A stretch of 64,000 nucleotides of DNA from Amoebophrya sp. A120 (Eukaryota; Protista; Dinoflagellata). A program made the translations under genes and the position numbers. Shown here piece by piece: positions 24,036 to 46,283 of this stretch. Within the stretch, counting starts at the first letter, position 1. Every line of letters starts with the position of its first letter. Below the pieces are notes generated by a model, which saw only the letters and a list, made by a program, of their open reading frames with translations, did not search any database and was not told the origin of the DNA. Location of the stretch: assembly GCA_905178155.1 (NCBI GenBank), contig CAJINV010000003.1, forward strand, positions 1,793,557 through 1,857,556, written 5' to 3'.

Positions 24036-27000
24036 CTAGAAAAACCTTCTGAGCAGCCTCGCTTTCATTTTGTTCATTTTCTCGTTGAATGTGACATTTG
24101 GCAACCGGTAGCCCCCTTTTTGGACTTGCGCGCGGTGATATAGGAGAGTGTTCCCGAACAGAATCGCGGAAAGGGAAATCAGAGCGCTTTCCGGTGACAG
24201 TTGCTCGGCAAAGTATCCCGTCAGCGAGGCTCCCAACAAGTATCCCAGGTCGTTTGACGTCCTCAACATCGACAGGGCCTGTCCACGCTGCACCTGTGAG
24301 TGAGTTTCTTGTTCAAAATCTCATGCGACGAAATTCAAATTGAAATCAACAAATTACTAGCATCCTTGCTTCCGATGCAGACACAAAACCGACACAACCC
24401 ACAGCAAAAAACAGCTTGTGACAACAGGAAGAAGTAAATACCGGGGACACCATGTCGCTGACGAGCGAGTTCGGCGCGGCTCCGTAGGCTGCACTCCCGA
24501 GGCCCCAGAGCGCGAAGATCGCGACCGCGCTGGAGTCCAAACCGTGATGCAAGAACGGCAGGAGGGCCATGGCGGCGCCCATGGCCAGCGTACCGCCGAC
24601 CAGCACCTTCTCCTTCCCGACCGTATCGCAAAGAAAGGCTATCGGTGGCCCGGATAACACCTGGATACCGGCCATGCCCGCAAACACGAGTCCCGTTTGC
24701 CCGACGTCCAGGCCAAACTGGGGCCCAATCAAAACGAGCGGCAACACCGTGGCGTGTCCACCGGTATGAGAGTGGTGCACGACCCTACTAGCTACTACCT
24801 GCTGCCCGTCATTTCATGGAATGTATCACGAACAGCGACAGACAGCAGCTGACTCACATGTAAATGCTCTGCAGCTCGTTCTTCTGGACAAATACACGTG
24901 TAAGTCTAAGTTCCGTACGCGGTGCATAATGTTGATGACCGGGGGCTCGGATCATCAACATCATGCAAGGAATTGCTAAATAGAGCTAGAGGGGAGATAG
25001 CAAAAGGCAAAATCTGGCTTAGATGAGCTTGTAATATATTTTTGCGAGAGAAATGCGGAGCAAAAAAATCATGTTGGTTCGTGCACTATCATAACCGGCG
25101 GAGCTGATCCAGAAGGCCCCGCTCAGGACCAGTAGGTCTTTCAACCGCGCGTTGTCTTGCCACAAAGTTCGCCAGTGGCTGACCGCCTCGCGCATCGCGT
25201 CTTTCATGGAACCGCCAAGCAACTTCGGTGCTGTCTCCACGATGAGAACTTGATTCGCTACCATGAGGACCATGAACGTGGACCCGACGGCCAGGAACGT
25301 GGGCTCCATACCGATGCGGGAAACCAGCAGTCCCCCAAGCGCCGGGCCCATCGCAATGCCGGCGTTGAAGGCGACCTAGAATCAAGAGCACCGAGAGATT
25401 TTGAATTTGTTCAGCCACAACCTGGCTGAAGAACCATAACTGATGAATCCCTCTATCCAAACTCATCTCGCAGACTACACTTTTGCTTTTCCGCCCATAA
25501 CTTTTAGTATCATCAGTACCCCAACTGGCGCGATGGTTCGTGTCATGTTCAACTTTGTCCCGAGGTCCATCATGCTCATAGATGCGGAGGAGGTCAACGC
25601 TGCGACGCAGCCTCCGACCAACATGCGCGAAAGACACATTTGCTCGAAGCTGGTTGCGAACGCCAAACTACCAAAGGCCACCCCCACGATCCCAGTCGGC
25701 ACGACGAAGAACGGCTTGCGCCCGTAGCGCTCCACCAAGAATGCAGCAGGGATGTTGGCGACTATCTTCGTCATCTGAAATAAATTCAAACTCATTCCGC
25801 ACGAATTTTGGGTGGAATAAGAGGCATTGATGATCATGTGACGTTTAGTTTTCGCCATGCAATGCTATTGCTAAATGACGCAGACGCTTACGTATTGATT
25901 GTGCTAGATCTAGAGCTAGACGCCAAATCCACTAAAAGCAAAAGATTCGGAAGCAATGGCGTCGTTGTAGCTGACCAGCAGTACTTCCCTGCCAAATAAT
26001 CTGTACCGCGAACGACGCGATGTAGATTCCGAACTGCGCTTTGGAGAGGGCGAGCTTTTCCGCGAGAAAGGGGATCACGGGCGTGAGGATGCCCAGCGTC
26101 GCGCCGGTCATGAAGCACGAGAACGCGATGGGATAGACGCGGTGGTCGACCTTTTCCGCCAAGCGCAAGATGGTTTTGGTCCACTGGTCCCGACTGATCC
26201 GGGGCTGCCCATTCTCGGTAGAATCGGTGGACACGCGGAAGACATCCAAGATCCGCTGCGTCAGCCGGTGGTCTTCCTCCTGCGTCTTCTTGGAAGTCTT
26301 CTGCAGCCGCTTCACCAGCTCCCGGATTTCGGGTTCGGTTAGGTACCCGTCGTCATCTGCATCCAGTTCGTCAAAGCGCTCCCGTATCTCCCGAGAGGAG
26401 AACTCCACCAGCCCGAGGGACTGGAACATGTTGGCCTGAATCGGTTTGCGGTTGAAACTCTGCAAGTAGCTGACCAGGGACGTTGGCGGCCGGGGGTACG
26501 GGCGTTTGTTTTTCGGCGGCGCGGCCGGGATGCGGGTGCTCTTTTGCCGCTTCGGAGCAACGCTTGTTGCAGGCACAGCTTTAGAAGTGCTGAGCGGGTT
26601 TTCGGCTGATGCCTTAGGCGGCCCGGCGGCGTTCTCCTTGTTTCTCGTCGACGGATTCGATGCCCCTGAAGTGTTCTCAGCAGAAAGCGCTGCAGCAGGT
26701 GCAGAGTCCTGCTTTGAAGTGGCGACACCCTGCTCGTTCGGTGCATTTTCACCGACATCAGCTTCAGCTGGCGCTGCTGGCTCTCCTCCAGCATCCTGCT
26801 TCCCTGGTGCAGTGTCTTTTTCGCGAGTAGTTGATGCGCTGAAAGTTCTTCTACCAGATGAAATGCAACTGCATCTTCTGGCATCCACAATTTTCTTGCC
26901 ACTGCAGTACGAGCGCGAGGGCACGTCTCGCGCTGCTGTAGTGCAGACCCTTGCTGAGGCGGCCGTGCGGTCGAAGATTGTGATCGCTCGGATGGCGGTC

Positions 27001-27164
27001 GAGTGGCAGCAAAAAAGTTCGCCAATCGGTCGTGTCGGTCCTCTGGTGACCGGCTGAGTCGTTCCTGGCCGTAGCGCGAAACGCCCAGTTCCAGATGGCG
27101 CGCTGCAAAGCAATTGTACTCTTGCTGTGGCATGATTTCTGTAGTACCAGCTACGAGCATACAT
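24036..27164 (-). CDS. MFS transporter (DHA1/Tet-like) with N-terminal transit-like extension and EF-hand; 5 exons, 756 aa
   Basis: Exons 27164-26007, 25774-25520, 25375-25096, 24761-24442, 24293-24036 sum to 2271 nt in frame. MFS motif A twice (LVERYGRK; LCDTVGK), RMLVG, GPALGG, RGQALS, GYLLG. EF-hand DADDDGYLTEPE. Three GT-AG introns plus one non-canonical intron. Confidence 0.85.
24765..25093 (-). mobile_element. TIR element acting as non-canonical intron (introner) in the MFS gene
   Basis: Plus-strand ends TATGAGAGTGGTGCACGACCC ... GGTTCGTGCACTATCATA (imperfect inverted repeat). ACCGG direct repeat at 24760-24764 and 25094-25098. Removing 334 nt gives FWISSAG|GHATVLPL. Confidence 0.8.
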
Positions 27165-27653
27165 TTGTGGAATTCAGACGCACATTGCATGTCTGCACCC
27201 GTCGATCCTGATCACCGAATCCTCTCTGAAGGACGACAAAAGCTATGGCTTTCTTGCTGTCTTGGTCCCACTCCTGGCAGCCTGGATCAGAACTACTTGA
27301 ACTTCAACTCTTTCTGCTTACATCGACGATCCATTTTTTCGACATGATCTATTCCCGAGATTACCGCTTGAGCTCCAGTGTCATGACCGAGAGAGAACTT
27401 GAAACGAGATCTTCAGAGGACTGCAGAAACGCTTCTACAACAGAAACCAGAAGCCCAGCTGCAACACCAACACCCCGTTGATTATCAAGGAAACATAAAC
27501 AACTCCTCTCCAGACGTAGTTGCTTGCCAGGTTCTGCCTAACTTTGAAATGACAGTACTGCTGCAACAGGATAGACACCTGTTCTGTTAAGAGCGGTTTG
27601 AGTCAACATGCTTTTTGAACGAAGTAAAAGTTGTCTGTGGTGCAACGGGGATT

Positions 27654-30418
27654 TCATTTCTCGTTGATCCGACCAGCGAAAAGCGAATGCGCAGACGAAG
27701 TGCCAGCATTCGCCGAAGCTTTCGCATGACTTGCTGCTCGCGCGCCAAAAATGGACGTGGAAACCGGCACTGGTTTAGCGTTTGGCGATGGCTTTGCAAA
27801 CAGGCTCGATTCCTCGCTGTTGATGCCCCGAGCGAGCTGTTGAATCGTCTGGTGAATGATTTTTTGTTGGTCCCGCTGCGACAGCTTCTGAAACTCCGAG
27901 GGCATTTGCGCCATCGGCTTCATGTTCATCGTTCGTGGCACAGCTGCCTGGACTTGTGTTTGGTTCAGGTGGTGCACCGCTGTTGATGCTGGTGGCCCTG
28001 CCTCGGCTCCTATATGCTTGGGCTGCGATGATTTTCGCTCATCCGCTTTCAGTTCTGAGCCTCGAGGGTCTACTGGTCTCGGACGCGGCGCTGTCCCTTT
28101 TTCGTCCGATACTAATACTCAGGGAAAATTTGTCACCGTCACCGTTTTGGCATATTCATTTTTTGAGCAAAAAAATTTGAATTTCTGCTGGCTTTGTATG
28201 CGTGTCCGTGTCTGCCACATGTTGCAACTGCGGCAAGCTAGCTACTGCGTTTCAAGCGCGCTGACCTAGCTCGCTGAAGGTAGTCCCGAAATATCCCAGA
28301 ACGGCGCTGCCGTTATACAGGCCAAAGCCGCGGCTCGTCCAGAAGGTCCTTGGCTGGGAGGCTGTCTACTGACACTAGAGCAACCAGATTTCCGTCCGCG
28401 GAGGATCGGAATACTGCGGCTGGTCTTGCTGGGTTGCCCCTCAGCATCTCGGGCACATCTTACTCCTTGACGAAAGACCTTCAGCAAAGGACCTCCACAA
28501 CCCGTGAAAAAAAGGCAAACTTTTAAGCAAATTAACCGACGACCCGGTGACAAATCTCGAAAATCGTGCATTTTGCACGGTATGGTGGACTATGGGAGCC
28601 CAAAAGCGGAACTGGTGACAAATGCCCGAAATTTTGCATTTTGCGCGGTATGGTGGACGATTGCGCACTGATCAAAAATTCTTGCAGCTGCAAGAATTTT
28701 TGGTCCGTGCGCAATCGTCCACCATACCCTGCAAAATGCAAGAATTTGCTGATTTGTCACCAGTAACAAATCTGGCTCGGAAACGTCCACCATACCGTGC
28801 AAAATGTAAAATTTCTGGGATTTGTCACCAGGTGGTCGTTAAATTTGCTTAAAATTTTGCTGCTTTTTTCTGGGTTCTGGAGGTCCTTTGCCGGAGGCTT
28901 TTAGTCAAGGAGTGACAAGGGCCCGACATTCCCAGGAGCAACCCAACATCACAAGCCGCACCATGCAGAAGCCCCCCCAGCAAGGATCGAGCCCCTATGC
29001 GCCAGCAGCCAGCCTCCTCGCAACGGGCCTTCTGGAGCCGCGTCTTCGGTCTGTACGACGGCAAAGCCATTCCGGGGCGCTTCTGGATTGTGTTCAACTA
29101 CACGGGCCACCATGCTCGAAGTGTAATGCCTCGCGGGCCACATTTGCAACAACTGATCAATACGGGCATGTGTGGGATATCAGGAAAAAATCAATTTTTT
29201 TGGGTCGGAAAATGAATATGCCAAAACGGTGACGGTGACAAATTTTCCCTGAATAACTAATACGTCAGTATCATGTGCTGGCGGCTTGAAGAGTGAGGCT
29301 AATCCTGCCATCGGCCGTGAAATCGGGTTCGTTGTCGTTGTACTTACCGCGGATGCGGCAGCCGCAGGTGCAAGTGCGGGTCCGGGCGATCCAGCGACAC
29401 GACGCATGGGTGCAGGACCGAACCCACCAGGTCGCGAGGGAAAATTGGCAGCATTCACTTGCTTCACCTGTCAGACAAACGATTCATTCGAAGTAGCTTC
29501 CGAACAATTCATTACTCCAAACAAACGAGAGTCCAAGTCCGCATTTCATCAGACACTCCAAAGCAAACAGTTGATAGATTAGATATGCATCAATTCGAAT
29601 TCCAACTTCACGCACCGGAACAAGTACTTACCTCAGCTGCTGCAGATGAGGATGCTACAGATGCAGCCAGAAGAGGCGTCTGTCCGGCAAGTGGTGGACT
29701 CGAGGCGAGACCATTCTTGATCCCCGGTTCTGGATTCGCGCGTCCGGTGCCATATTGGTCTCGAGTATGACCTGCAGAGAATCCGGTACGAGCAGCGACG
29801 ACCACATCAGGGCCAGGCGTGTTAAGCGGCTTCCTCTGCAGCGCCCCTGGTCCGTCTTGTTGCGCCTCCTCCGCTCCTCCTGTTTTCAAACGCTTCGCGG
29901 GCCGCAGTTGCTCCTGAATTGCTCCGTTGAGTGCATCTTTCACCACATTTTGAAGAGGGAAAAATGTACAGCGAAGCCGAAAAACGGGTGACGGTGCTAT
30001 GCAAACAAAACCATAGTCATAGAGAACTCTATTTTTTGAGTTTGCAAAGGTCACCTACAGTCTGTGGAACAGTTAAGTACAGTATCACCCTGTAGTTTTC
30101 CGCGCGATCGCACATTTGAACACTTTCATACTTCATATCCAGTATTATCGGTGGGAAGGTCCCGAGAAGCATCGTCTTCAGGTCCTCGAGCTGTAGAATG
30201 CTGTCCTGCAAATTTCGTTCCAGCTCTTTCTTGATTTCGATGTACGCTTTCTCGCGAAACTCCGTCTCGACCGCACTGCATGCTGACGTAGTGGTTGACG
30301 ACGGGAAGCTCGTGGCTGTTGGTAGAGACGAGGACGAGCTCGAGCCGCTGGAACCTCCGCCACTTGATATGCTGGTCAGGATCGCGTTCGGGTTGAACAA
30401 CCCGGCACAGCTGTTCAT
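27654..30418 (-). CDS. Hypothetical protein (~465 aa), 4 exons, interrupted by the fold-back element
   Basis: Exons 30418-30055, 29996-29632, 29467-29256, 28110-27654 sum to 1398 nt in frame. Intron 29468-29631 is GTAAGT..CAG. The intron-1 boundary is less certain. Confidence 0.65.
28116..29255. mobile_element. 1.14-kb fold-back (whole-length palindromic) TIR element / introner
   Basis: Perfect ~44-bp TIR TCAGGGAAAATTTGTCACCGTCACCGTTTTGGCATATTCATTTT, with its reverse complement ending at 29252. ACTAA direct repeat at 28111-28115 and 29256-29260 (extends to ACTAATAC). Arms stay complementary to the centre at 28687/28688. Confidence 0.92.
28546..28830. repeat. Core of the fold-back: two ~68-bp tandem units mirrored around a perfect palindrome
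   Basis: GGTGACAAAT...TGCATTTTGC(A/G)CGGTATGGTGGAC at 28546 and 28614, with inverted copies on the right arm. Centre AAAAATTCTTGCAGCTGCAAGAATTTTT. Confidence 0.9.
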
Positions 30419-31244
30419 CTTGTTGCACTTCTACTTTTGTATTTCAGAAATTAAGAATGACCACGTGAATGACGAAGCAGACGGAGACGACTAAAGGAGC
30501 TTCTACTTTGGTTGTGTAGCTCCCGGGCTGGCACAAAGGTGTAAACGCACCACTGTTTAGAAGGGCAAGAAGTTGCTTGGATTGAACTACACCAGTAGGT
30601 GGCCTAAGAGACTGACTTTCGTCCTCGCAATCCCTGAACGAAGTCCAACTGAAAGAAACTGACGATAAGGGATATCGAGGACAAATCGAAACTCGACGAA
30701 AAAAGGGTAAATCAAAACTCAAATTACTGGACAACTACGAAAATCAAGAATGTACAAGTAGTGGGCGAGAACAGCGGGTACACAAAAAATGCATAGTCAC
30801 CACATCAAGTCATGGCTTCCACTAGCACGACTGGCACTCGTCAGTCACCGTCGCAAGTAGCGGACTTGCTTTGTGTTCCTTTTACACTTATACTTAACCT
30901 TGTTCTTGTCTTTTTCCAAATTTTTGCTATTCAATAGCAATTTAGAGGAGGTCCGAGGTCGAGGTCACACTAACAATGAATTGAGCAATTCACACAAGGT
31001 TTGCATTGCGATTGGTAGTTGTTTCAAGTGCTACAACTAACACGAAGGTATGTTGTCGCTTTCCTTTTGTTCTTTTCTCGTTCCGTGGTTTTCGCCCAGC
31101 ATTACAAGTTCCTTTCGTTCCATAGTAAGTACCACAGTCCACTTTTGCTTGTTCGAGCCAGCGCAGCCGCTGTTCGTTTTTTTACAAAAAACTCACAAGG
31201 AAGATGAAATTTGGTTTTTCTAGGGAGCTCTATTCGGGTTTGCT

Positions 31245-32475: not shown

Positions 32476-33209
32476 TGCGGTCACGGGGAAATGAAATGGT
32501 GGTCAGGAGCTACGGTACAACAAATAGGTCTATTGTTTTGTTTTTTTTTCTTTTGGAACGATATACACGACAAAGGAATGCTCAACATGAAGTATGGGCG
32601 GCGATACTCTTTTGCATAAAGATTAGATGTAGATCATGGCATGTTGTTGGCACGGCGTTTTAATCAGCGCACCACAATTGTGTGCGGCGTTGATTCTATT
32701 TCGAGGCACGTTTGAGCTAACGAGTGGTGCTGCGTCCCCCATACGAAAAACAATGGCAGACCGACACCGACGATCGTCGTGTTTATACTTTGGAAAACAT
32801 GATCAGTCACAATCAACCGAGATCGAGAAACCATATTTGTAGAAGATTTGTACGCTCATATTCATCATGGTCCCTGCTAGGTAGTAACACGAAACAAGAT
32901 CCCGGACCCAGCTGTTCCCCTGAACCCAGCTGAAGATAAGCCGACGTAGTCCTGAGTGTGCCGCCGAAACCCAAACCTGGACCGATAGGGAATGCAGAGA
33001 CTTCCCTAGTACAAGCGACACGTCGTGCTCGTGATCGATTTCAGCACGGACACGCACACGGAGCACATCTCGTACGAAGGAAAACGACCGGCGCGAACAG
33101 GTTCTATTTTTCTCCGATTTTGGATTCTTGCGCTAGAAACTCGGTTTCAAATTTCCTTTATCGCCGTCATTTGCGTATTGAAATGTAGGTCCCTCCTTCA
33201 GGTCGTGCT

Positions 33210-34097
33210 TCACGTTTTTGTTACTACGCAACCTTCATAGCAATACACTGGTATGGATTTGAACTTTTCCACTTTCGTTGGAGCCACGTTTTCGATAGGC
33301 AGGCGAAACACATACGACACAACCTTGCATTTTCTCGTCGTCAGCGCCGTTTCGAGCACATCCACGATGTGCTTCATGCCCTCCGGAACCAAGTATACGA
33401 AAAATATTGTTCCAGTTTCGGCAATTTCTGTCCGAAATCCGCATACATCAGCGAGCAGCAGCTCGGGGCGGAGCGTGTTTTCATTTCCGCTATTTGGTGT
33501 TTCTGTATCTGTTAAAGTAGTTTGAGAAGATCTTCCAAAGCGCATCGCCGCTAGTACCTGGCCGGCAGCTTTCGAAGACAGCACGGCGCCCTCTCTGTCT
33601 TTGACCAGGTATTCTCCGCTCGTGGCCGCAGTTTCTTCTTCAAGAATCGCCGGCGCAGTAGATGAGGTTGAACATAACGCAGCAGGAGTTCTTGTCTTGC
33701 CGTGAAGTAGCTGACAGCTTTCTAGCCGCTCCTGTGCCTTCTCGAACAAAACGGGATCGTACTCTATCCCGATGGCCGCTCGTGGTAGTCGGTCCGCAAA
33801 GCGCTTGACGAAAGCACCCACTACACGGCCGTCACCGCAGCCAAGATCGAAAAACACGTCACGGTCCGTCACACCCGCGCCCTCCGCGTAGAAATCCAGC
33901 GCCAGCTGAATCACTTCGTCGCTTGTCGGATTAAACGGCGCTAGCTTTGGCCCGGAGCAAAGGGCGGGGTCCCCAATCTTGGGCATTGTCTTCGTTCCAT
34001 GATCCGCTGTCTCGGGGGGCGGGGCGCCGTAGGGATTTGCGGCAGCACCACTCGGTACCGGAGCGGAAGAACCGCCACTAGTACTAGGGGATACCAT
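33210..34097 (-). CDS. Class I SAM-dependent methyltransferase (FAM173/DOT1-like lysine MTase group)
   Basis: APFNPTSDEVI, FFDLGCGDGRV (motif I), GIEYDP, FFVYLVPEGM, VVSYVFRLP. Confidence 0.8.
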   Translation of the reverse strand: MVSPSTSGGSSAPVPSGAAANPYGAPPPETADHGTKTMPKIGDPALCSGPKLAPFNPTSDEVIQLALDFYAEGAGVTDRDVFFDLGCGDGRVVGAFVKRFADRLPRAAIGIEYDPVLFEKAQERLESCQLLHGKTRTPAALCSTSSTAPAILEEETAATSGEYLVKDREGAVLSSKAAGQVLAAMRFGRSSQTTLTDTETPNSGNENTLRPELLLADVCGFRTEIAETGTIFFVYLVPEGMKHIVDVLETALTTRKCKVVSYVFRLPIENVAPTKVEKFKSIPVYCYEGCVVTKT

Positions 34098-35443
34098 GAT
34101 GTTCTGTTGCGACGCTGTCGCTGGATACCACTACTAGTACCTCCGGAAGGTCAATAAACCGCAAGACTGTAGTACACTCAAATGGAAGTGATGAGGTGTT
34201 CATTGATTTTGTTTTTGTCTAGGAGCACGAAGTGCAACTTCTGCAACTACAGTGCCTACTTCTAATGGGCCTGATACATGATTTGGCGAGTTGTTTGTGT
34301 TCCTCACAAAAGTTTTAGTCAGCGCATATACACACTGTATGTTCCTCTTTGCTGAATTTCGTGATGGTAAGGAGGTGATACTTTCTCTTCGCTCCCTGGA
34401 CCTTTGCGTTTGATCGTGGCGGCTCAAGGCGATATCAATGCTGTTCAAGGAGCAACCCACACGACCTCCTCATACGGACCCATTCTGGGATAAGGGTGAA
34501 GATCACGGCCTTTTAGCGGTTGGCATTGATTGCCCTGCACCAGAAAGAGAAAAGACGTATCGGTCGTGGTTTTATCTTCATTTTCGTTCTTGCACTTGCA
34601 CCGCTACTTTCCTACGTTGCAGCCTTGCACCAGCACCAGTAGTACTTTATTGCGTCGCAAACCCGCAAACAAGTGCCACCCTGGTGACGATGAAGACGAG
34701 AGCAACTGGGCCATCCTCCTTCAGCTGCATCTGGTCTTCGGAACTCCCTATCCGCAGCTGTGCTCCTCCTGGATGGTGGCGTCTCGTCTGATTGAATTCA
34801 TTCGTTCTACTTGTGCTACGGATTGGTAACAGGATCAGTTCAGCAAAAAGTTTTTCATACGCACGCATACGCATGTTCATACGCTTTCGCTGGCAAGGAC
34901 GACCTCATACGTTGGTGCCCCACGGCCGTTGCTTACTGTCAAGAACTGAAACAACCGTAACGGTAACGGATGCAACATTCACATTCATCTGATGTTTGAT
35001 AATCGGATAATTGTTAAGAGGATTTCTAGGAAAGTCTGCAACGTCAAAATTGTCAAAGAAAGTTCAAGAAAAACAGACCGAGCAAGTGTCCATAGGACCT
35101 TGAAGAAGATCACTTAGAGCGGAACCCTACGCCTATAGAATCTCTCGACATTGTACAATGGGACAAAGCTGCAGGGTTCTCGCTAGACATTCAACTGCAT
35201 GATGTTGCATTGTTTTGGTAATTGATGGTCTAGTCAGTGCAAGTGCTTCTAGTACGGCTAGGGACAGAGGCGGAAGAAAACATCATACATACATATACAA
35301 TGTGGTCGACACCACGAACAGTTCTACCTAACGTAACCCGCCTCTATCTGGGATGAAAATGAGTGAATTGAAACGGAAATATTAACATCTTGTTCTCCTC
35401 ACTCGATTAGGACTACATGGACAACCACATCCTACTCCTAGTC

Positions 35444-38400
35444 CTACATCACATTTCCGAGTATCGAGTTCGCGGTTCCTCCGATCGAGTTGCCAACGGA
35501 CCCCAGTCCCGTAATGCCTTGCTGGCCCAGGTTTCCGAAAGTACTGCCGACACTGCCCAAAGCCCCGGACACGTCTCCGTTCGTGAGCTGCGTACCCAGG
35601 CCGCCCGCAAAGTTCGCCGCATCAACACCACCCTGGCCAGCCAGCTGAGCCCCCTGCCCCGCCAGCGCAGCTGCGTCTTTTCCTAGTCCCACCGCGCTTT
35701 CCGGTGCGTTGCTCAAGGCGGTGCCGGCGGCGCCGACCGCATTCCCTGCTCCGTGCGCAGCATCTCCCGCGGCGGCGGCTCCCTTTGACAGAATGTTCTT
35801 GTCCTGCGCGTTCATCAAGGCGCTTTGGTGCCCGTCCTCCGTTTCTGGTGGGGGGTTGTGCGCCATGCGCAACTTACAGCGGGCATTCGCGTTTCGGCCG
35901 CAGTAGCACCCTATCAAATGCAGAAGTGTCTGGGTCTGGAAGGATACAAGGTTTGTCATGTTGGAAGGCTAAGGGCAGGGCGTCCCATTCGTTTATAAAC
36001 TTAAAACGGTAGCCACCTACCCAGCAAACTCTGAGTGGAATAAGCACGGGCAAAGCGATCTCTACCGAGAGACAGTCACAAGAGCTCCTGGGACGGCTGC
36101 GGGATGAGCTTTGTAGCCATCTGAGTAGGGATAACTTTGCCGGCAGATACAAGGTTTGTCATGCACATTTTGCAAGAATCCTGATGTCTGCGATGCATGC
36201 CCTAGCATCACAGATTATGTGAGGGCTTTCTGATTCCTATGCCGCATGAGAAATGCCCTCTCGCCGTGGCCAAAACCAGACCTCTTTTGCTGTTCATGCA
36301 ATACAGATTTTTGGATAATGCAGACGCAGCATCACAAGCTGCAATCTTCCAGACCCAGACATATTTGCATTTGATACACCCGAGCCGCGGCTCGGTCCGA
36401 AATTCGAACATGCACCCGTGCGGGTACTTGTCCTTTGGACAGTTCCGGTCGGACGTCGTGTTACTCAAATGCCCGTTGTTGTCGTCGTGAAAGGCACACT
36501 CGTGATCGGACATCACCTTGGTCGCGCAGTCGTCCCGTAACGCTTTCATGACGCTCTCCTCCTCTTTCGCAAGCTGGTCGCGGAAGTGCTTCAAGCCGTC
36601 CTTCTCCAGGCCGTCGAGAACTTTCAAATTATAGCCGATCGTCTGCCCGAGCGGCATGCCGACGCCCCCGACTACGTGCTCTTTGATCACGTCATTGGAG
36701 AAAAGATCTGCATCTACTTCTGGTTCTGCGAATGAGGTACTACAAGACGCAGGACTCTTGTTGTTCTTCATGTTCATTCGGTCTCCTGCTCCGCTGGACG
36801 CTGTATAAAAGCTGGTTGTGGAAGACGACGACCTCAATCGCGGTGTTGTTCTCGAGACCACGGGTGACGGGGCCGTACCGCCCCCTCCGCTGACCATGTC
36901 TGCGAAGAGCGCACCGATTCGTGAAGACAAAGCCTGGGTTACGCGACCAACCGTAAGCGCCGAGGCCGACAGCTGAAAGGCGGCGCTTAGTGCTGTCGCG
37001 GTGTTACCACCAGATGATCCCGCCATGTGTAGCATGTCGTATTGCGCGTTACCGTCGCTGTGCAAGAAGGATGTCGTACCACCCAGCAAATGCGACGCGT
37101 CGTGCTCGTCATGTGTATCATGCACGAAGTCAGAACCGGAGAAAAAAGACGATCTTGATACAGTGCCGCTCGTCGGCTTGAGCTCCTGGGCACACCCAGA
37201 CGCCGAACCTTTCACCCATGGCGAAGCGAGCTCATCAGAGGAAGAAAAGAATGTGGTGGAGGAGTACTGGTGCTTTTGGGATCGCCGGCCGCGGCCAGCA
37301 AAACTTTTTACTCTTTGCGAACCCGTATCTTCGTGAAGTGGTGAGATATTTGAACAAGATGATGTGGAAAAATAGTCCACGTACGACGAACGTGTCGGAA
37401 GAAGAACCGAACCCTCCTTCTTTGCGCCTCTATTCGCGACTGGTCCTCCTGTAGTTCCCGATGTGCTTAAGAAACTACTCGAACCTGCTGCTGTAGTGCG
37501 GAACGTGGTGGAGGGGACGCTGTCAGGTTCTTGCAAAGAACCTCCTTGCGTCGTCGAAGGTTTCAGATCGTCGCCAGCACCTCCGCCCCGCGCAGCCGCG
37601 TCTGCATGATCCACTCCTTCGCGAAGATTCTTCGTAGATCGTTGCGTCTCCACCATGGCAGTGATGTTGGTTGGAAGTCCCATGCTTGCCATGGGATTCA
37701 TGGAGGGCATGCCACCGCTCAGCGGGTTAGACATCATACCTCCTGGCATTCCGCCCAAAGGGTTTGACATTCCGCTAAGCGGGTTCATTGAGGACATGTA
37801 CCCCTGCGCAGCGGCGGTTGCCTTCTGTTGCGCGGCTTCGGGGGAAAGCGCTGCGGGGTCAAGACCTTGCTGGGCCGCCAAGGCTGCGGGATCTAGGTTC
37901 GTCGGCAGGTTTTGCGCCAAATTCGCCCCTGCAGCAGCTCCTCCAGCACCGGGAACTACCGGAGTGGTCGGTGGGGCCTCTGGCAGCTCCTCTTCCGGCT
38001 CCAGGGTTTCCAAGAGCGCTTCGGCGACGTTCTCCTGCTTCGGAACCGCGTGAAATTGCTGCAGTGCGTTTCCGTCTGCGAATCGCATCACCCGCTGGTA
38101 GTCTTCGTCCTTGATCAGACCCAGGGCAATCTCCGCTTTGATGGTGGCCTCGCCCGGGTAGAGGGAAAACACGCTCGTCGCACTCTTGTACGTGGCGGGG
38201 ATCTGCGTTTCGTCCACCTCGTGGTCGCCCCACAGCGGCACGCCGAACTTGTCGTAGGTGGGCGTCGGCACGGGCTTGGTCACCCGGTACACGTTGGTTC
38301 CGAGCTCCTGACGGGAGGCGTCGTCGATCAACAAACTCACGCCGCCGGCACAGTCGGCGTTGTCGATCCTTCCGCACACGCAGGCCTCCTGACCCACAGC

Positions 38401-41400
38401 AGTGCGGAAACTGAAGTACTTGGTCGTCCCACTTCCGCACTCCGGGTCGGCCCCGGCCAAGACAGCGCACCTGTAGTAAAAAGCACCAGATGATTTTTGA
38501 TTCGTACTTGACTTCACTTGCAAGTCATGATCTACAGAAAAAAAAACTCGCGCGGCGTCGTGCCACTTCATGTAAAAGGTTTTTGACTACTAGTGTCCGA
38601 AGCCAAAAAATGACCTCCACTGAGCCTGACTCTGTATGTGCTTACAGGAAAGAAAAAATGGTCAAAAAGAAACTCAGTACAGCTCTGGGGTTTTCGCGCC
38701 TGGTAGAAGCTTCACGTCTGTGGTTCCGTCGCCACATTTGAGGTCCTTGGCGACTTCCTCGAACAGTTGCTTGGTCCGGAACTTTTCGTCGATGGTGCCG
38801 CCGCCGTTGGGGCGGTCGCAGCGCCCATTGTTGATCGCGGTGACGCATGTGGCCGACGTCACAGGCTCCCCCTCGTGGTTCGCGATGTTGACGGCCCCAC
38901 TTTCCGGCGAGAGCTTGTGGCAGCAGTGGTTTCCATCCTTGGTCAGATGGGACGCACACGTCGCCTCGTCTTGGCTCATTTGGCACAAGTTTGCCGACAA
39001 GGGACCCTCCCCACCAGCGTAGCTGAGGTCGAAACCCCCGGGTGGCTGGGGGTTCCAGCCAAGTGCGGGCGGGTGGTCCACGTCTTCCGCGGTGTCCAGC
39101 GGGGCTTTGGAGGCGACCGTGTCGGTAAATTCCTCCGGGTCGCCGTACCACTGCAGCGTGTCGTCCACATGCGCGTTGGGATCGCGCCACGTGCGCTTCT
39201 CCAGCACCCACTGCGGCTTCGCGGGTGCGGGTGCTGCCGCGGCCTCCTCGCCTTCGCCCGCTGCCTCCGTCTCTGCTGGCGGCGGTGCCTGCTCCACCCG
39301 GACGCGGAACAATGCCTGTTTCTTCAAGTCCTCGCTCTCTTCCAAAGCCCAGTACTGCGGCGTTTCCCCAACCGCGGCAACTTTTTTGTAGCGGCCAAAC
39401 GGTGGCTGTGGCTCGGGGGTAGTTCCTCCAGCAGCTCCTGCAGTTTTTAACATTGCTTTCGAACCTGGTGCCGCATTCGCAGAAGCGGTGTCTCCAGTAC
39501 CGGTCGCATCTCCCGTGGCCGCTGTGGTTTGATCGGCCGCAGCTGTTCCCACTTTTGCTGCACTTGCTCCTGCATCTGGTGCATCTCCGTCGCCTTCTGC
39601 AAAGTCTGTTTTACTTTTGCGAGCTTTTCTCTCCAACTTTTCGTGTATCGGCCAGTTGCTAGAGGACCCGGACATGAGTGGCCGCTCGTCTCGGTGCGGG
39701 GATGACAGACTTGAAGAACTTTTACTTTCTGAAAGAGCTGAAGCGGTTATTGAGCGCGGGGCGACTTTTTCCACTGACACTTCAAGCGCCGAAGTCGTTC
39801 CCGCGGCGGCCGTTCCGGCTTTAGCTCCTCCTGCACTTCCGCCCGCTGCGTCAGTAGTACCAGTCGGAGTTGCTCCACCTGCACCACCTTTGCCGTCACC
39901 AGCTACCTGTCCGCCCCCATCTGCGCCGGCGCCCGAGCCTCCGTCAGCACCAGCACCAGCTGCTGCAGCCAGAAGCCCACGCGCCGCACCCCCGGCTTTG
40001 AGTCTGAGATCCAGGATTGGATCAGTGCCTCCTTCCTCCTCCCCGTTGTTGAGCTGACACTTGAGGTAGTACGCCGGTGGGCCTTTGATGCACGTGGTTT
40101 TGCAACGATGCATCAGTTTCGCCAGCTCCTCCTCGTCTTTCCACTGGGAGTTCCATCCCTGCGCCTCGTCGCGCACGTCTTGCTCCTTCTGGTCCGCGGT
40201 TTCGGGGTCGAGCAACTTCGCGATTTCGAACTTGAGTTGCTTCTGCGGATCCGTTTCCAGGGGCACGGAGGTGATCTCGCACACCGCGCGACCGGTCGTG
40301 TCCCGGGTACCGCCCGGTGCGAGCGCGTCCAACCGCGACCGTGCCTTGGCGACGGTTTGATGCACACTGTCCACCATGTCCTCGCGGATGACGCAGTACG
40401 ATTTGTCCACGTCGGGCTCTTTGCCGACCCAGAACGACTGATCCTTCACCCAGCACTGCTCGTGGCGGGCCGAGGAGGTGTCAGTCCCCAGGCCCCGAAG
40501 CTCCGCATCGTCCATGCTTCCCATTAGCTCGCAACTCATGCCGCCAGCACCTGGGTGGAAGTTAGTTGGACAGTATAGAAAGTCAACGAACTACTTACTA
40601 CAACGCGAAAGAGCGACCAGTACTAACTGCTACCGGTACCGACAACACAAATCTAGCTAGCGCTTGGAATGACTACAAGTGTGAAAACTACAACTTCACT
40701 CAGTATTTAGTATTTTTTTAAGAGTCCAGACTTGGACCTTTCTACCAGGTCCAGGTTTGGAAAGAATCTCCAAGTTTCTTTTTTATACCTTTCAACATTT
40801 TTGTTTGCATGCCCGCGAAGTCGACGGTGATGCCTTTTTCCGCGTTGTACCCAGATTCCGGTGGCAGGAAGTTCTGGGGCTCCGGGTACACGGTTGGGTT
40901 TTTTGCCAACACGCGCATTGTGGTGGATGCCTTGTCTGCCGGCCAAGTCGGTACCACCGTCGGGTGAGAGGCCTCGGCGTCCGTCCACTTCAGTTCTTCG
41001 AGCTGCCACGGCGACAACGGATCCCCCTGCTTGCCCTGCACCAGCCGATAGCCCTTAGTTGGCCCCGCCGCTGCGGTCGCTCCGGTGTCGTCGCCGCCTC
41101 CTCCGGTTGCAGCCGGCGGGCTTCGCGGCATCACTTTTTCCCACCAACCCGGCTTCTTCGGCAACGCCAGTGTCACAGATGGCGGCACCACGGGATCTTT
41201 CGGGGGTTCACCACTAGAATCCACGACCGCAGCTTCAGGCCCGTTCTTCTCGGTATCCGCACCGGCTGCAGCTGGTGTGCCTCCATCGTTCGAAGCTGCA
41301 GTCCCAGTAGCCGCGGCCGCTGTCCCAGACGAGCCTTCTGCTGTAGTTGTTGTCGTGGCTGCACCAGTATTTCCGTCGCCTTCAGCGAAGCTTGTGGTCA

Positions 41401-44400
41401 GTCCCTCTGCTCGCGCCTCCGTTGAGCTTGAAGAACTACTTTGCAAATTAGGTTGCAGGACGTCAGCGGGCGGGCTCTTCAATAATACGCGATCTTTTTC
41501 CTTGATGGCGTGCATTTGCTCATTGAGCTTTTTTGCAGATGCCAAGCCGACATTTCTCTCAGAGCCTATTTCGAGCTCGCTAGTAGCTGTACTGGGCGCC
41601 GCCCCCGTCGTTCCTGCACCAGCCACTGTACCTGCACCCTCGGCCGTTGACGCTGCAGCTGCTCCTTCGCCCCCACCTCCCTCTGCCGCCGCAGTACTAC
41701 CTGTAGCTGCAGCCGCTCCCGCAGTTCCTCCACTAGCAACGCCTTCTTCTGCTTTTGCTACCTCGGCCTTCGGGGTTGGGTGGAACACGTATGTCCCCGA
41801 AGCTTCCGGAAAGCTTGCGACGGCCACCTTGACGGCGTAGCTCGGCTGGAGTAAGTCAATGCCTTTGCACTCCGGATCGTACGCGCACTCGTGGATGCAT
41901 CGGGTCATCAATTTGTTTCGCGGTTCCAGCTGGTCCGGCCCGAGGACTTTTGGGCGCAGCATTTTCGGTTGGTTCGCCGTTTTGCCAGGAAGTGGCTTGC
42001 CGGGCATGCAGGTTCGGCCGTGGATCTCGAAGCCCTCGGTGCTCGGCGGCGGGACGTCCTGAACGTCGCGCGATTCTGCTTGCTCCTGGTCGACGATGCT
42101 TGCCAGGGAAAACAATGAGCTGAGTGGCGCATTTGTTCCGCTCGATCCGCCCTCATTAGCGCAGTGCCCAGGTTGGTTTGCCGGTATACAACAATGACTG
42201 ACGTCGGTTTCCGTGCATTCCGGGCCGGCACACAGCGCCTCGCAGTTCAGCTTTGGTGTCGTCTCCGGACACTGCATCTTGAACCCATCCCGCTCCGGTA
42301 GGTTCTCCCCGCGAAAGTAGAGCCTGCACGCCATGTTCTCATAAGGCTTCGGGGGTTCTTCGGGCACCTCTTTCTCCGGTAGTTCTTGAGGCGTTAATTC
42401 GTCTTCACCAATGCGCTGTGAGAGTTTCTGTGATATGCGCCGATAGTGGTTGCCTAGCTCCTCGATTTCCTTTGCAAAAGGAAACGCTTTAAGGTTGTTC
42501 ACTATCTTGTACTCCTTTAGCCTCTCCCCGACCAACGTTTTGCACTTGACGGACTGAATATCACCATCAGTGCTACATTCTTCGTCAAGCTTTTGCTGTA
42601 CGCTCCTCTCGTCTTTTGGTGCATCTCCAGTTCCTGCACCTGTAGAAGCATCATCTGCAGTTCCTGATCCTACATCAGCACCTGTCGTTCCTGCTCCTCC
42701 TGCACCTGCAGTTCCTGCTCCTGCAGCACCTGCAGTTCCTGCTCCTGCAGTGTCTGTTCCTGATCCTGCAGTGTCTGTTCCTGATCCTGCATCTGCTGCA
42801 AACGCAGTGAATATTTTTTTCCCCGTTCTGGTTGGAGAAGATGCCGACACCAGCGGCTCTTCCGCGAGCACGACGGGGTGGGAAGGACGCAAATAGTCCT
42901 TTCGCTTCGCGCATCCGCTTCCTAGAGTTCCTGATCTCGCGCCGGCCCCCCTCCTCGTTCTCTCTCCCATCGCGGCATACGGGAACGGGATCTCGAGAAG
43001 ACCAATGACGCCTTTCACTTTGGAAAGGTTAAAGGGGTCCATGCTTTTCAAGGAGTCCAAGTTCAGGCTCTTCGCCTTGGTGGAGTCCTCTCCCGCCGCA
43101 TTCGTCAAGCCAAGGTCCGCCTTGGTGGGATCAAAAGCGTTCGAACCGACGATATCGACGGGATTGGCCATGGTGCCTAGGTTTAAACCCACTGTGCCAA
43201 CGTTCCCAGTCATCTTGTCCGCCAGACTCTGGACCTGGTAGTTCTCAACGATTTTGATCTTATGTTTGAGGCGAGATTATCCCTTGCAAAAGTACCATAC
43301 CGCTATACGGTCGTTGCACCGTGCATAGCAAAGATTCTAATTATTTGAAATTTTGTTTCATCTTGAGTTGATCCACCCAAGAACATGCTGCTATTAAAGG
43401 CACATACTCACATCAAGATCGTTCGCAGTTGCGATGCAGTGCCGGATTTCGCAGCACATACAGTGCGATCATTACGTACTTACTTTTGCACGGGATAAAA
43501 AATCTAGTTCTGCGTCAGCCTCTTCGTAATCCTCCGGATTCACCGAACACTGCCAGCCTTGTTTTCCCGGCAGCGCTTCGTACTTTCGCTTTCGGTGTTC
43601 GTAGGCGTGCTGAGCCATCAGACCCGCGCCTGCTAGAGCGGCGATCCCGGCTCCGCCGAGCAGCATTTTTTGAGCCAGAGAAGAGTTCTTCAAGGCGTTG
43701 TACATCGCGCCCGCCTTGCCTGCTGCATACTCCGCCGCTCGACGAAGCCTGGACTTCTCCGTCTGTTTGAGTTGTGGGACAAGATGAAAAAGTGATGACT
43801 CTGTAATGCAGGGTGCTGTGGTGTCATCTTGAAATTGATGTCGATCAATACATATGCAATCCCATCGTAGTTCCGTAGTTTGTTCCGTATAGAAAACTAA
43901 ACATGAAGAGTCATCAAAAAACACAGCTTTACCGCTTTCTGCAGTGCTAATGCAGTATTTGCGGCCTCCGCTTCCTTTCGCTCGCGTTGCATGAGGTCTT
44001 TGCTCTGGAGCAGATTCCCTTCTTGCAGGTTTTTGCCGACGTCCTGAATGGCTGTCTTGATCTCGTTCATTTTGTCAATCATTTTCTCCAGCTTTTCAGC
44101 GTCGCCCGTTCGATGCCTCCCGGGTCCACACACTTTATTCACGGCACCTGAGCCTGCCGATGTGCTCCCGGCGCCTCCCAATTTGACGACTGACGCTGGT
44201 GTTCCAGCCCCTCCAGCCAGGGCGCCGGCCATAACACCACCAGCACCAGGAACCGGAGGAGGTAAGGGTGACGGTCCAGCACCGATCGACGAGCCAGTTG
44301 CTGCTGCTTCCGCAGGGCCGGCAGATGCAGGTGGAGCAGCAGCACCTGCAGCCGCTGGAGATGCTGGTGGAGCAGCAGCAGCACCTCCAGCCTCCTGCGG

Positions 44401-46283
44401 CACAGGCACAGAACCCTCGCCACCCTTCGGTTGTCCAATCGGCGGTGGAGCAGGCACTGCAACTGCAGGGGCATAGCCTGCGCCTCCTCCTCCGGGCTGC
44501 GCCATCGCCGGAGGAGCAGATGCTCCACCACGTGCTGGATAATTATATGATCCACCACCGGGGGCTGCAACCATCGCCGGAGGAGCAGATGCTCCACCAC
44601 GTGCTGGATAATTATATGATCCACCACCGGGGGCTGCAACGTTACCCCCGCCAGCTGCAGCCGCAGTACTACTAGATCCTCCAACTGCACCAGCTTTGGC
44701 CCCCGGCATGTCTTCGTAGCCCGCAGCCGTCTCTGCCGCGGACGGTGGCACGCAGAAATCCCAGTTGTGACGGGACACCGAAAACCACGAGCTGGTCCCG
44801 TCCCACGCACTTTTTTCCAGACACCGCGGGTTGGTCGGACAGGCGAAAAACTGCGTTTTCCCGTCGTGCTCGAGTGCCGTGCACAGGTCCGCGCCGGCCA
44901 GCGGCTCCCGGCTGTTCCGCTTCTCCATGCGGGCCATCAGCATCACGGCGTACCGGTCCCGCAGGGGTATCTTCTTGAAGGACGCCTCGCTGAACTCGCC
45001 CGTGTGGGGGTCCCTATCCACAGAAAAAAACCCATCCACATCCATTTTTTGCATGACAAACACAGGACGTAGGGTAGATTTTGATTTTATGTATGTTTTG
45101 CATGACAAATTGGATGTGGATGGGTGTTTTTTCCTGGATAGTCCCGCAGGTGGTCGTACTCCTTCAGCAGCGTGCTGTTCCAGCCGCAGCGGCAGCCAAA
45201 GTGCGCCGTGTGGTCCGGCTCCAGCCCGGAGGGTCGGCAGTAGTCCCACGCGCCCACCGTGGGACGGAGCTGGTGGTGGTTCTCGCCCCCGTAGGCGTAA
45301 AGCGCGTGGTCCCACCCGCCCGGGTCTTTCACGTCCGGCATCAGCACGCGGCAGTCCGGCGAGGATTTCACCTTGCACCACGTGAAGGGCGTCCCCTGGT
45401 GCACGCCGCAAGACAGCTGGCTGCTCGGGTCGCACTCGCAACCCGACGACGTCAGCGGTTGACCTTGACCAGCAGCGCCAGCCGCTGGCGCCGCGGCCGC
45501 CGCAGCTGCTACAACACCGGTGGCACTGCCCGGCTCTGGGTCGATTAACTTCATGAACTGGTCTTCGGTGCCCCCGCTGCTTGGCTCCACCTCCAGGTCG
45601 CGTCGGACCTTGGCCCGCAGGGAGGTGAGGTCCTTGTACAACAGGGAAATCTTGTCCGCCGCGAGATCGTTCTTTTCCGCCACGTTCTGGCCCAGTTTGC
45701 GAGCCGCGGCGGCCGAAGAGCTGCCGGACATGAGTGCCTGGGTGATGTCGTCACGCATGTCTTCCACCTCCCCCAGCGCCCCCACGGCGCCGCGCACCTG
45801 CTTCCCGACCTTCTTCAACAATCCGGCGAACCGCAACCCCGTCTCCTGCGTTTGCTTCTCGAGGGAGCTGATCTTCTGGTGCAGGGCGAGCTTCTGAACC
45901 CGTGTCATGATGGACTCGAACTGTTCCGCCATCGGATCTGCGAATGACGTGGCCTTCACCGGTGGCGCTGCTGAAAAGGAGCTCATCTTGGTTCCCGCTT
46001 GATTGTAGTGCCGCATGCGCATCCGTCCTGAGAGCTGCAGGGGTGAATGGGAACGAACACGCTGGTGCTCCAGGCCACGGCGTTGGCTGTCGCCATCGTC
46101 GCCATACCTCGCCGACGAGCTTGCAGCACTGAAGGACGAGCAACTGCTACTGGTCACACTGCTACTCCGATTTCCAAGCAGGTTTCCATGTTCGGTTCCA
46201 TCTCCGGCAGGAAAAAACGCAGTTGGCCGCGGTGGCGTACCGACGCCGTGTTCGTAAAAAAGGTGCTGATGCTGTCCCTGCAT
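35444..46283 (-). CDS. Giant (~3,131 aa) Cys-rich multidomain surface/secreted protein, 7 exons
   Basis: Exons 46283-45141, 45009-43933, 43762-43484, 43258-40789, 40550-38681, 38470-36377, 35906-35444 sum to 9396 nt in frame (4 GT-AG introns, 2 introners). Contains WDYC/WDFC Cys modules, PAN/apple-like segments (CIHECAYDPECKGI; ELCAVLAGADPEC), coiled coils and one hydrophobic segment (MLLGGAGIAALAGAGLMA). 5' end uncertain. Confidence 0.7.
35912..36376 (-). mobile_element. TIR element / introner in the giant gene
   Basis: TATCAAATGCAGAAGTGTCTGGGTCTGGAAG ... CTTCCAGACCCAGACATATTTGCATTTGATA. CACCC direct repeat at 35907-35911 and 36377-36381. Removing 470 nt gives PRLGC|YCGRN. Confidence 0.88.
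42660..42795 (-). repeat. Coding minisatellite (GTAGA/DTAGSGT repeats)
   Basis: Repeated CCTGCAGT(GTCTG)TTCCTG units. Confidence 0.7.
44502..44640 (-). repeat. Perfect 69-bp in-frame tandem duplication (VAAPGGGSYNYPARGGASAPPAM x2)
   Basis: Identical units start at 44502 and 44571. Confidence 0.9.
45015..45140 (-). mobile_element. Small TIR element / introner (126 bp) in the giant gene
   Basis: TATCCACAGAAAAAAACCCATCCACATCCA ... TGGATGTGGATGGGTGTTTTTTCCTGGATA. GTCCC direct repeat at 45010-45014 and 45141-45145. Removing 131 nt gives YDHLRD|PHTGEF. Confidence 0.88.

What the first reader, a model, noticed from the sequence alone, without database searches (positions are those of the whole stretch)
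24760..45145. Four sequence-diverse TA...TA inverted-repeat elements with 5-bp target duplications behave as non-canonical introns
Seen: elements at 24765-25093, 28116-29255, 35912-36376 and 45015-45140 all begin TAT and end ATA/GTA on the sense strand. All have terminal inverted repeats and are flanked by 5-bp direct repeats (sense CCGGT, TTAGT, GGGTG, GGGAC). Element plus one repeat is 334, 1145, 470 and 131 nt, none a multiple of 3, and exact removal restores the frame each time. No register within the direct repeat gives GT-AG ends. Established: Amoebophrya genomes are reported to carry inverted/direct-repeat introner elements and many non-canonical introns, so the class is not new, but the splicing mechanism is unresolved as far as I know. 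Inference: a DNA-transposon-like system makes 5-bp TSDs, and the TIR stem positions precise RNA excision at a variable dinucleotide. Precise removal restoring frame only proves insertion into an exon; the intact flanking exons beside diverged arms argue for splicing.
Basis: partly seen in the sequence, partly recalled or inferred. Interest (0 to 1): 0.85.

Follow-up and report, generated by a model that had tools for sequence, protein, structure and literature searches.

The report
Transposon introns of parasite Amoebophrya A120
These are small transposon copies inside genes of the marine parasite Amoebophrya A120, a known class of intron without normal splice signals; two are missing to the base from spliced RNA, one is cut two bases off, and the junctions suggest the cuts are likely measured from a fixed three-letter motif at each end.

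Summary
The four elements are real, and the window is Amoebophrya sp. A120. They belong to the introner class of Farhat et al. 2021 (TAT-starting inverted repeats, 5-bp repeats), so the class is known. Contigs that also splice GT-AG introns skip E3 (470 nt, 2 of 2 runs) and E4 (131 nt, 1 of 2) exactly. E1 removal (334 nt) is supported indirectly. RNA also shows two more non-GT-AG introns (187 and 225 nt). Three junctions with broken repeats share one register: 5' cut one base before TAT, 3' cut four bases after ATA (six in E2, whose end reads GTA). In metagenome relatives, 90 of 112 copies have an exact 5-bp duplication, with no GT/AG bias, and they interrupt reading frames in both orientations (13 vs 13). 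Best reading: a relaxed spliceosome counts from the terminal motif, with the A at -7 as a possible branch point (inferred). This scan noted similar hairpin or position-defined introns before, in other protist genomes.

The parts
24765..25093 (-). E1: TAT..ATA element, 329 nt, 5-bp repeats at 24760-24764 and 25094-25098; intron in an MFS transporter gene
   Evidence: Annotated A120 protein equals the exact-removal translation over the 669 residues compared. A25 and AT5 orthologues are gapless across the junction. Depth bins of one contig place the skip edges at 24757-24759 and 25093-25094. The junction itself was not listed.
28116..29255 (-). E2: 1140-nt near-palindromic element, sense ends TAT..GTA, repeats at 28111-28115 and 29256-29260 (8 nt ambiguous). 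RNA contig removes 1147 nt (28109-29255 or 28110-29256), a frameshift
   Evidence: One contig in run X4; run X1 does not bridge it.
29945..30131 (-). 187-nt non-GT-AG intron (GT..GT or TA..TG), possibly a decayed element (29949-30130 plus 5 nt); no terminal stem predicted
   Evidence: Joint 29943->30131 in X4; frame kept; 6 of 10 terminal matches and pairing probability 0.
35912..36376 (-). E3: TAT..ATA element, 465 nt, repeats at 35907-35911 and 36377-36381; enlarged member of a high-copy family of about 250-270 nt
   Evidence: Exact 470-nt skip in X1 and X4, no joined form in DNA-like run X6; family copies.
43278..43497 (-). E5 (new): TAT..ATA element, 220 nt, inverted repeat 16 of 17, direct repeat decayed (2 of 5); 225 nt removed
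   Evidence: Joint 43273->43499 in X1 and X4; only this length keeps the 3131-aa frame among -2..+2.
45015..45140 (-). E4: TAT..ATA element, 126 nt, repeats at 45010-45014 and 45141-45145
   Evidence: Exact 131-nt skip in X1; relatives in 3 of 131 metagenome loci.
24036..27164 (-). Host gene 1: EF-hand plus MFS transporter, 756 aa
27654..30418 (-). Host gene 2: unknown protein, 422 aa if E2 is removed exactly, 293 aa as annotated and as in the RNA contig; motif shared with AT5 at 27822-27902; poly(A) tail at 27531
35444..46283 (-). Host gene 3: one 3131-aa reading frame of unknown family holding E4, E5, E3 and three GT-AG introns

Best explanation
These are short transposon copies with TAT..ATA inverted ends and 5-bp target duplications that sit in coding exons of Amoebophrya A120 and are absent from spliced RNA, likely removed by a relaxed spliceosome that measures both cuts from the terminal motif instead of reading GT and AG. 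Shown: the repeats, the strict 5-bp duplication in relatives, removal of element plus 5 nt at E3, E4 and E5, and a 2-nt overshoot at E2. Inferred from three junctions: the 5' cut lies one base before TAT, so the intron starts N-U-A-U and keeps the +2 U and +3 A of a normal GUA donor; the 3' cut lies four bases after AUA. Inferred and untested: the first A of AUA (position -7) is the branch adenosine, the stem brings it next to the 5' cut, and the 3' cut is counted from it. E2 ends GUA, so the next AU two bases on would be used, which matches the 2-nt shift. Because both ends carry the same motif, an insertion would be removable in either orientation and at any target. Mobilisation would be in trans by a DDE transposase that was not found here.
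For: RNA: X1 and X4 contigs splice 8 GT-AG introns, one X4 contig ends in poly(A), and none shows a mismatch to the window at 99%. They skip E3, E4 and E5 by element plus 5 nt, while DNA-like run X6 runs into E3 from both sides with no joined form. Register: allowed 5' offsets are {0,-1} at E2, {0,-1} at the 187-nt intron and {-1,-2} at E5; the only common value is -1. At -1 all six introns have A at -7, E2 as observed included. Relatives: 90 of 112 paired copies have a perfect 5-bp repeat and 12 more one mismatch; of 278 TAY..RTA pairs, 170 have a 5-bp, 1 a 4-bp and 0 a 6-bp repeat. No bias for G at position 5 (19 of 73) or AG at positions 3-4 (4 of 73) of the duplication; GT-AG is possible in only 16 of 170. 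Orientation 13 vs 13 in frames of 250 aa or more, both orientations in one 879-aa frame. A copy with stops in all frames splits a TCP-1 chaperonin between Pfam positions 343 and 346. Among 117 strand-called copies the first A of the sense 3' ATA never varies, while its other two letters vary in 5. Paper: A120 has U2, U4, U5, U6 and nearly all spliceosomal proteins, U1 snRNA not detected; A25 elements start TTA and its top classes are all TT-NN, which also reads N-T-A (PMC7789003). Stentor has a branch A six from the 3' end (PMC9505925).
Against: The register rests on three junctions from assembled contigs of one study; two of the three lie on the same contig. The 187-nt intron has no predicted terminal stem and its end match (6 of 10) is within the range of GT-AG controls (1-7 of 10). 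For four of the six introns A at -7 follows from how the element is defined. At E2 an A at -7 also fits offsets +3 and +9, and a perfect AG at the expected +4 site was not used. The end-variant asymmetry is not significant (Fisher p = 0.11), and 1 of 117 copies has C at the predicted +2 position. The branch A is paired inside the predicted stem. Only 3 of 8 GT-AG introns have A at -7. Farhat's Fig. 3 legend calls the splice sites variable relative to the hairpin. No lariat, raw-read or direct-RNA data were available. The metagenome copies have no RNA evidence.
Confidence: 0.5

Rival explanations
1. Removal is real, but by a non-spliceosomal or unknown machinery that reads a paired motif and fixed spacers, as in Euglena nonconventional introns, and releases circles or linear RNA without a branch.
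For: Five of six introns fold into a stem that joins the ends. No dinucleotide rule, both orientations used. The Euglena code is a paired triplet with fixed spacers to the cuts (PMC12501133 abstract), and excised euglenid introns are circles without lariats (review PMC11282704). U1 snRNA was not detected in A120.
Against: The -1 register reproduces +2 U and +3 A of GUA donors. The 187-nt intron needs no stem. The E2 shift tracks the loss of one A. A near-complete U2/U6 machinery is reported.
Confidence: 0.3
2. Removal is spliceosomal, but the register floats from intron to intron within the repeat, and the common -1 value is a coincidence of three cases.
For: Only three informative junctions. 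The paper describes variable sites. At E5 the stem extends one pair to -1, so a stem-base cut would explain that case alone.
Against: No single stem-base geometry fits E5 and the others; -1/+4 fits all but E2 with one rule.
Confidence: 0.15
3. The junctions are reverse-transcriptase template-switch artefacts across strong hairpins between short direct repeats, and the mRNA keeps the elements.
For: cDNA-only false introns are documented (PMC8240250 abstract). E2 folds at about -660 kcal/mol and its junction is frameshifting, so an artefact at E2 alone is not excluded.
Against: E5, the 187-nt intron and E2 have 1 nt of homology at the joint, and at E2 an 8-nt repeat was available and not used. 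Conserved frames need removal: the MFS gene and the chaperonin. X4 has zero depth in the middle of E2.
Confidence: 0.04
4. The elements are absent from the DNA of the cells that gave the RNA (polymorphism or programmed DNA excision).
For: RNA and DNA come from different runs.
Against: RNA contigs match the window without substitutions; the DNA-like run shows the filled site and no joined form at E3. Only E3 and the flanks of E1 and E2 were checked in DNA.
Confidence: 0.01

Closest known systems
Introner elements among the non-canonical introns of Amoebophrya A120 (Farhat et al. 2021, PMC7789003; sections 10, 11, 16, passages and supplement parts 2-3 read; figures not visible)
   Same: Same strain; inverted repeats starting TAT, then seven variable bases and a run of A; direct repeats of 3-5 nt (5 bp in the Fig. 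S19 legend); RNA-supported removal; no transposase inside.
   Different: The paper treats repeat length and cut position as variable. Here the duplication is strictly 5 bp and three junctions give one register (-1/+4). It does not mention, in the parts read, a branch A in the ATA or mis-excision of a GTA-ending copy.
A120 introner families in Gozashti et al. 2025 (PMC12130899; passages and 19 of 58 A120 rows of Dataset S2 read)
   Same: Mostly TIR DNA elements of unknown family, many of 100-350 bp, with mixed splice dinucleotides.
   Different: Automated duplication lengths of 2-5 bp and mixed co-option labels; one family is noted as 5 bp by manual inspection. No common register in the rows seen.
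Euglena nonconventional introns (PMC12501133 abstract and opening; review PMC11282704 passages)
   Same: No GT-AG; ends joined by pairing; cuts at fixed spacers from a paired triplet; MITE origin proposed.
   Different: Euglena uses CDG/CH'G with 3 and 5-6 nt spacers and a purine at the exon start; here TAT/ATA with 1 and 4 nt spacers and no visible exon-base rule; unrelated lineage.
Introners of Micromonas, Aureococcus, Symbiodinium (PMC9860276 and PMC11282704 passages)
   Same: TIR elements with target duplications that become introns.
   Different: Those carry or co-opt conventional splice sites; here the duplication shows no GT or AG bias.
IS3EU/GingerRoot DNA transposons (PMC10045372 passages)
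   Same: TA..TA termini; integrase-related DDE transposase, which would fit the integrase-like TIR family reported in A120.
   Different: Their duplication is usually 6 bp; here 0 of 278 pairs show 6 bp. No transposase was seen.

Membership tests
Amoebophrya A120 introner elements | Lies in the A120 genome | tested here: met
   Two window genes match A120 proteins at 100%.
Amoebophrya A120 introner elements | Terminal inverted repeat starting TAT, seven variable bases, then a run of A | tested here: met
   Sense 5' ends of E2, E3, E4, E5 fit; E1 starts TAT but lacks the A run.
Amoebophrya A120 introner elements | Direct repeat of 3-5 nt at the boundaries | tested here: met
   5 bp in E1-E4; decayed in E5.
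Amoebophrya A120 introner elements | RNA-supported intron with non-GT-AG ends | tested here: met
   E2, E3, E4, E5 joints listed; E1 indirect.
Amoebophrya A120 introner elements | Repeated in the genome (family member) | tested here: inconclusive
   E3 very high copy and E2 several-fold depth in run X6; E4 has metagenome relatives; E1 and E5 had no hit in 131 loci; no whole genome was held.
MITE (non-autonomous TIR DNA transposon) | TIRs, fixed-length target duplication, dispersed copies, no transposase | tested here: met
   E3 family; two E2 frames have no Pfam hit.
MITE (non-autonomous TIR DNA transposon) | Cognate autonomous element | not testable with these tools
IS3EU/GingerRoot | TA..TA termini | tested here: met
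   against PMC10045372.
IS3EU/GingerRoot | 6-bp target duplication | tested here: not met
   0 of 278 pairs at 6 bp, 170 at 5 bp.
U2-type spliceosomal intron | GT (or GC) donor and AG acceptor | tested here: not met
   No GT-AG or GC-AG register in any of the six.
U2-type spliceosomal intron | Excision as a 2'-5' lariat by U2/U6 | not testable with these tools
   Only assembled contigs cover the locus; the one raw-read run laid gave 5 reads at 90-95% identity.
Euglenid nonconventional intron | CDG/CH'G paired motif with 3 and 5-6 nt spacers | tested here: not met
   Motif is TAT/ATA with 1 and 4 nt spacers.

The most novel reading that the evidence does not exclude
A120 non-canonical splicing is not variable but follows one code, N-UAU...AUA-NNNN, in which the transposon's own end supplies the +2 U and +3 A of the donor and a branch adenosine seven bases from the 3' cut. 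Neither terminal dinucleotide is read. One family of 5-bp-duplicating transposons can then become an exact intron at any site and in either orientation, and a single A-to-G change in the end (E2) shifts the cut by two bases and truncates the host protein.
Probability: 0.35. Interest if true: 0.8.

Novelty: already known. Interest (0 to 1): 0.45.

Why it matters
The elements themselves are published. What is still open is how A120 removes tens of thousands of introns without GT-AG ends and without a detected U1 snRNA. Junctions at decayed repeats break the alignment ambiguity and give a concrete, cheap test of the cut register and of a branch point, using RNA-seq that already exists. If the -1/+4 code holds, it would define a spliceosome that ignores both terminal dinucleotides and would explain why these transposons are tolerated in essential genes. 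E2 also shows that some public A120 gene models may record imprecise excision and lose conserved C-terminal parts.

Tried and rejected
No whole genome was held, so no genome-wide scan or transposase search in A120. E1 and E4 do not fit in one 20-kb lay, so the E1 joint was never listed. Rfam: 0 matches in the window. E3-type end patterns: 0 hits in viral and prokaryote genome collections. The exon after E2 found no protein of 266-2000 aa; the AT5 match came. A suspected nested element in E2 (28533-28841) was dropped: its flanks continue the palindrome. A window scan for TAY..RTA pairs without a repeat found nothing above the shuffle maximum of 12.5 except E2 and its inner arms, E3, E4 and E5. 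Reading the register from mismatched duplications in the metagenome copies failed: 15 cases, no stop codon in either version. One case (L075) seemed to favour register 0, but its frame reads like an antisense frame and has no Pfam hit, so it was set aside without a homologue test; the cullin case could not be aligned across the junction. The orientation step had a bug (no reference set) and was redone; one search lost 2 of 102 rows to a key clash and was redone. Codon-based strand calls gave 27 vs 46 for orientation (p = 0.03 against 1:1), so a mild bias is possible; their error was 15 of 463 in a leave-one-out test. Roy et al. 2023 was not held.
Full report
Observation. The four elements are at the stated coordinates with the stated ends and 5-bp repeats. 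Exact removal of element plus one repeat joins open frames on the minus strand in 4 of 4. No register gives GT-AG. In an anchored inverted-repeat scan E2, E3 and E4 scored 22, 16 and 15; 10 block shuffles gave 2 hits of score 8. E1 scored 7 because of a 3-nt indel. The four do not resemble one another.

Organism and prior knowledge. The exon after E1 matches an Amoebophrya sp. A120 protein at 100%, with orthologues from A25 and AT5. Farhat et al. 2021 (PMC7789003; sections 10, 11, 16, search passages and supplement parts 2 and 3 read, figures not visible) report over 60% non-canonical introns in A120, introner elements whose inverted repeats start TAT, direct repeats of 3-5 nt, U1 snRNA not detected, and an unknown removal mechanism. 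The class is therefore known in this very genome. The annotated MFS protein already has E1 removed exactly.

RNA test. Eleven runs were listed and four were laid. Contigs of X1 and X4 (one study, two samples) behave as RNA: they skip GT-AG introns, one ends in poly(A) at 27531, and they show no substitutions at 99%. Of 14 joints in 25300-45299, 8 are GT-AG, 5 are non-canonical, and 1 is a short match from another E3-like copy. E3 is skipped by exactly 470 nt in both runs, and the DNA-like run X6 enters E3 from both sides with no joined form. E4 is skipped by exactly 131 nt in X1. E1 was outside the second lay. Depth arithmetic puts its edges at 24757-24759 and 25093-25094, and A25 and AT5 orthologues align without a gap across the junction, which together favour 334 nt.

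E2 is the exception. The X4 contig skips 1147 nt. This gives a 293-aa protein identical to the public A120 annotation, whereas exact removal gives 422 aa. The AT5 orthologue shares a 27-residue motif (74% identity, E 9e-10) that is in frame only after exact removal, and that frame alone is free of stops and has the best codon score. So the ancestral frame is the exact one, and the recorded junction is imprecise. Whether the annotation is independent of X4 is unknown, and contigs hide minor forms, so an exact form may coexist.

Two further introns. A 225-nt skip (both runs) removes a 220-nt TAT..ATA element, E5, plus 5 nt, although its direct repeat has decayed to 2 of 5. A 187-nt skip (X4) starts at (G)TATG and has no AG end. 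E3, E4 and E5 lie in one 3131-aa frame that needs all three observed lengths. The 187-nt intron does not fold a terminal stem, while the other five do, so its status as a decayed element is weak.

Register. Where the repeat is perfect the cut cannot be placed. At E2, the 187-nt intron and E5 only one base is ambiguous. The allowed 5' offsets from TAT are {0,-1}, {0,-1} and {-1,-2}; the common value is -1, with the 3' cut at +4 from the element end, +6 in E2. At -1 each intron starts N-T-A-T, like GTA with a free first base. Each has A seven bases from the 3' cut. E2 is the only one whose sense end is GTA, and its observed cut places the next AT at -7/-6. Offsets +3 and +9 would also put an A at -7, and an AG at +4 was not used. 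In A25 the elements start TTA and the nine top classes are all TT-NN, and the nine top A120 classes all start NT (Table S4); these tables depend on how the aligner placed ambiguous joints, so they are compatible with the rule but do not test it.

Relatives. The organism is a eukaryote with chaperonin, cullin and helicase genes; that it is an A120 relative is inferred from shared families (E3 94% over 231 nt, E4 85%), not tested. Of 112 paired copies, 90 have a perfect 5-bp repeat and 12 one mismatch. Of 278 TAY..RTA pairs found without requiring a repeat, 170 have 5 bp, 1 has 4 bp and 0 have 6 bp; many of the rest may be inner or cross pairs. Removing element plus 5 nt gave frames of 250 aa or more in 27 of 80 long loci (56 junctions), against 12-14 loci for out-of-frame lengths. 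Target sequences show no bias toward G at position 5 or AG at 3-4, and GT-AG is possible in 16 of 170. Family copies lie 13 sense and 13 antisense in such frames, with both orientations in one 879-aa frame. One copy with stops in all three frames splits a TCP-1 chaperonin domain. End variants point the predicted way but weakly: among 117 strand-called copies, changes in the outer two letters fell 5 at the sense 3' end and 1 at the 5' end, and changes in the third letter 0 and 2 (Fisher p = 0.11).

Mechanism. Shown: a non-autonomous TIR transposon with a strict 5-bp duplication, and removal of element plus 5 nt from RNA. Inferred: cuts at -1 and +4, counted from the TAT/ATA motif. Inferred and untested: a U2/U6 spliceosome with relaxed +1 and AG rules, using the first A of AUA as branch point. 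A short branch-to-end distance has a precedent in Stentor, position 10 of 15 (PMC9505925 passages). The main rival is a Euglena-like paired-motif code run by unknown machinery (PMC12501133 abstract). A cDNA artefact (PMC8240250 abstract) is unlikely in general, since joints form with 1 nt of homology and conserved frames need removal, but it is not excluded for E2.

What is in print. Five searches of the held library on Amoebophrya or Syndiniales introns and passages of PMC12130899, PMC11282704, PMC11453091, PMC12005148, PMC12787238 and PMC9860276 showed no fixed register or branch proposal for these introns. The figures of Farhat et al. (Fig. 3, S19-S25), 39 of 58 A120 rows and two files of the Gozashti 2025 supplement, and Roy et al. 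2023 (not held) were not seen and may bear on this. IS3EU/GingerRoot share TA..TA ends but make 6-bp duplications (PMC10045372 passages), so the elements are not filed there. Four earlier notes of this scan describe similar introns in other genomes; they were not checked here. No note existed for this genome or for E3.

Verdict. Real and already known as a class. The added value is a sharper, testable cut rule and a natural mis-excised copy. Interest 0.45.

Noticed in passing
window 28116-29255: E2 is a multi-armed near-palindrome (arms of 221, 185 and 81 nt) with DNA depth several times the flanks; X1 holds contigs of other copies with 4 substitutions each.
   Followed up: partly
window 35912-36376: E3 is longer than its family (about 250-270 nt): the last 231 nt match family copies, and an 18-nt direct repeat at element positions 32-49 and 235-252 marks an internal duplication or insertion.
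   Followed up: partly
window 33162-43273: One 9.8-kb X1 contig spans the 3131-aa gene and the downstream methyltransferase-like gene without a break; read-through or overlapping UTRs in a one-direction gene cluster.
   Followed up: no
window 27754: Both X1 and X4 have a contig that matches from 27754 onward and carries the same unrelated sequence before it; a repeat or a chimeric transcript.
   Followed up: no
window 44501-44642: Tandem duplication of about 69 nt inside the coding sequence of the large gene.
   Followed up: no
window 1-24000 and 46300-64000: No TAT..ATA element above chance outside 24.7-45.2 kb, fewer than the paper's genome average would suggest; genes there include TruD, an LRR protein and an EHD protein.
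   Followed up: partly
P0005 (AT5) against window 24036-30418: The AT5 gene model fuses the orthologue of host gene 2 with the start of the MFS gene, showing conserved gene order and probably a wrong model.
   Followed up: partly
L095:301-559 and L115:301-569: The two metagenome copies whose predicted sense 5' end lost its first T both have G just before it, which would give GC or GG starts; two cases, noticed after the fact.
   Followed up: no
L001-L131: The metagenome organism is very dense in these elements (230 calls in 131 loci, some loci overlapping) from many families, including ones starting TATGGCGTTCTC and TATCCTGTG.
   Followed up: partly
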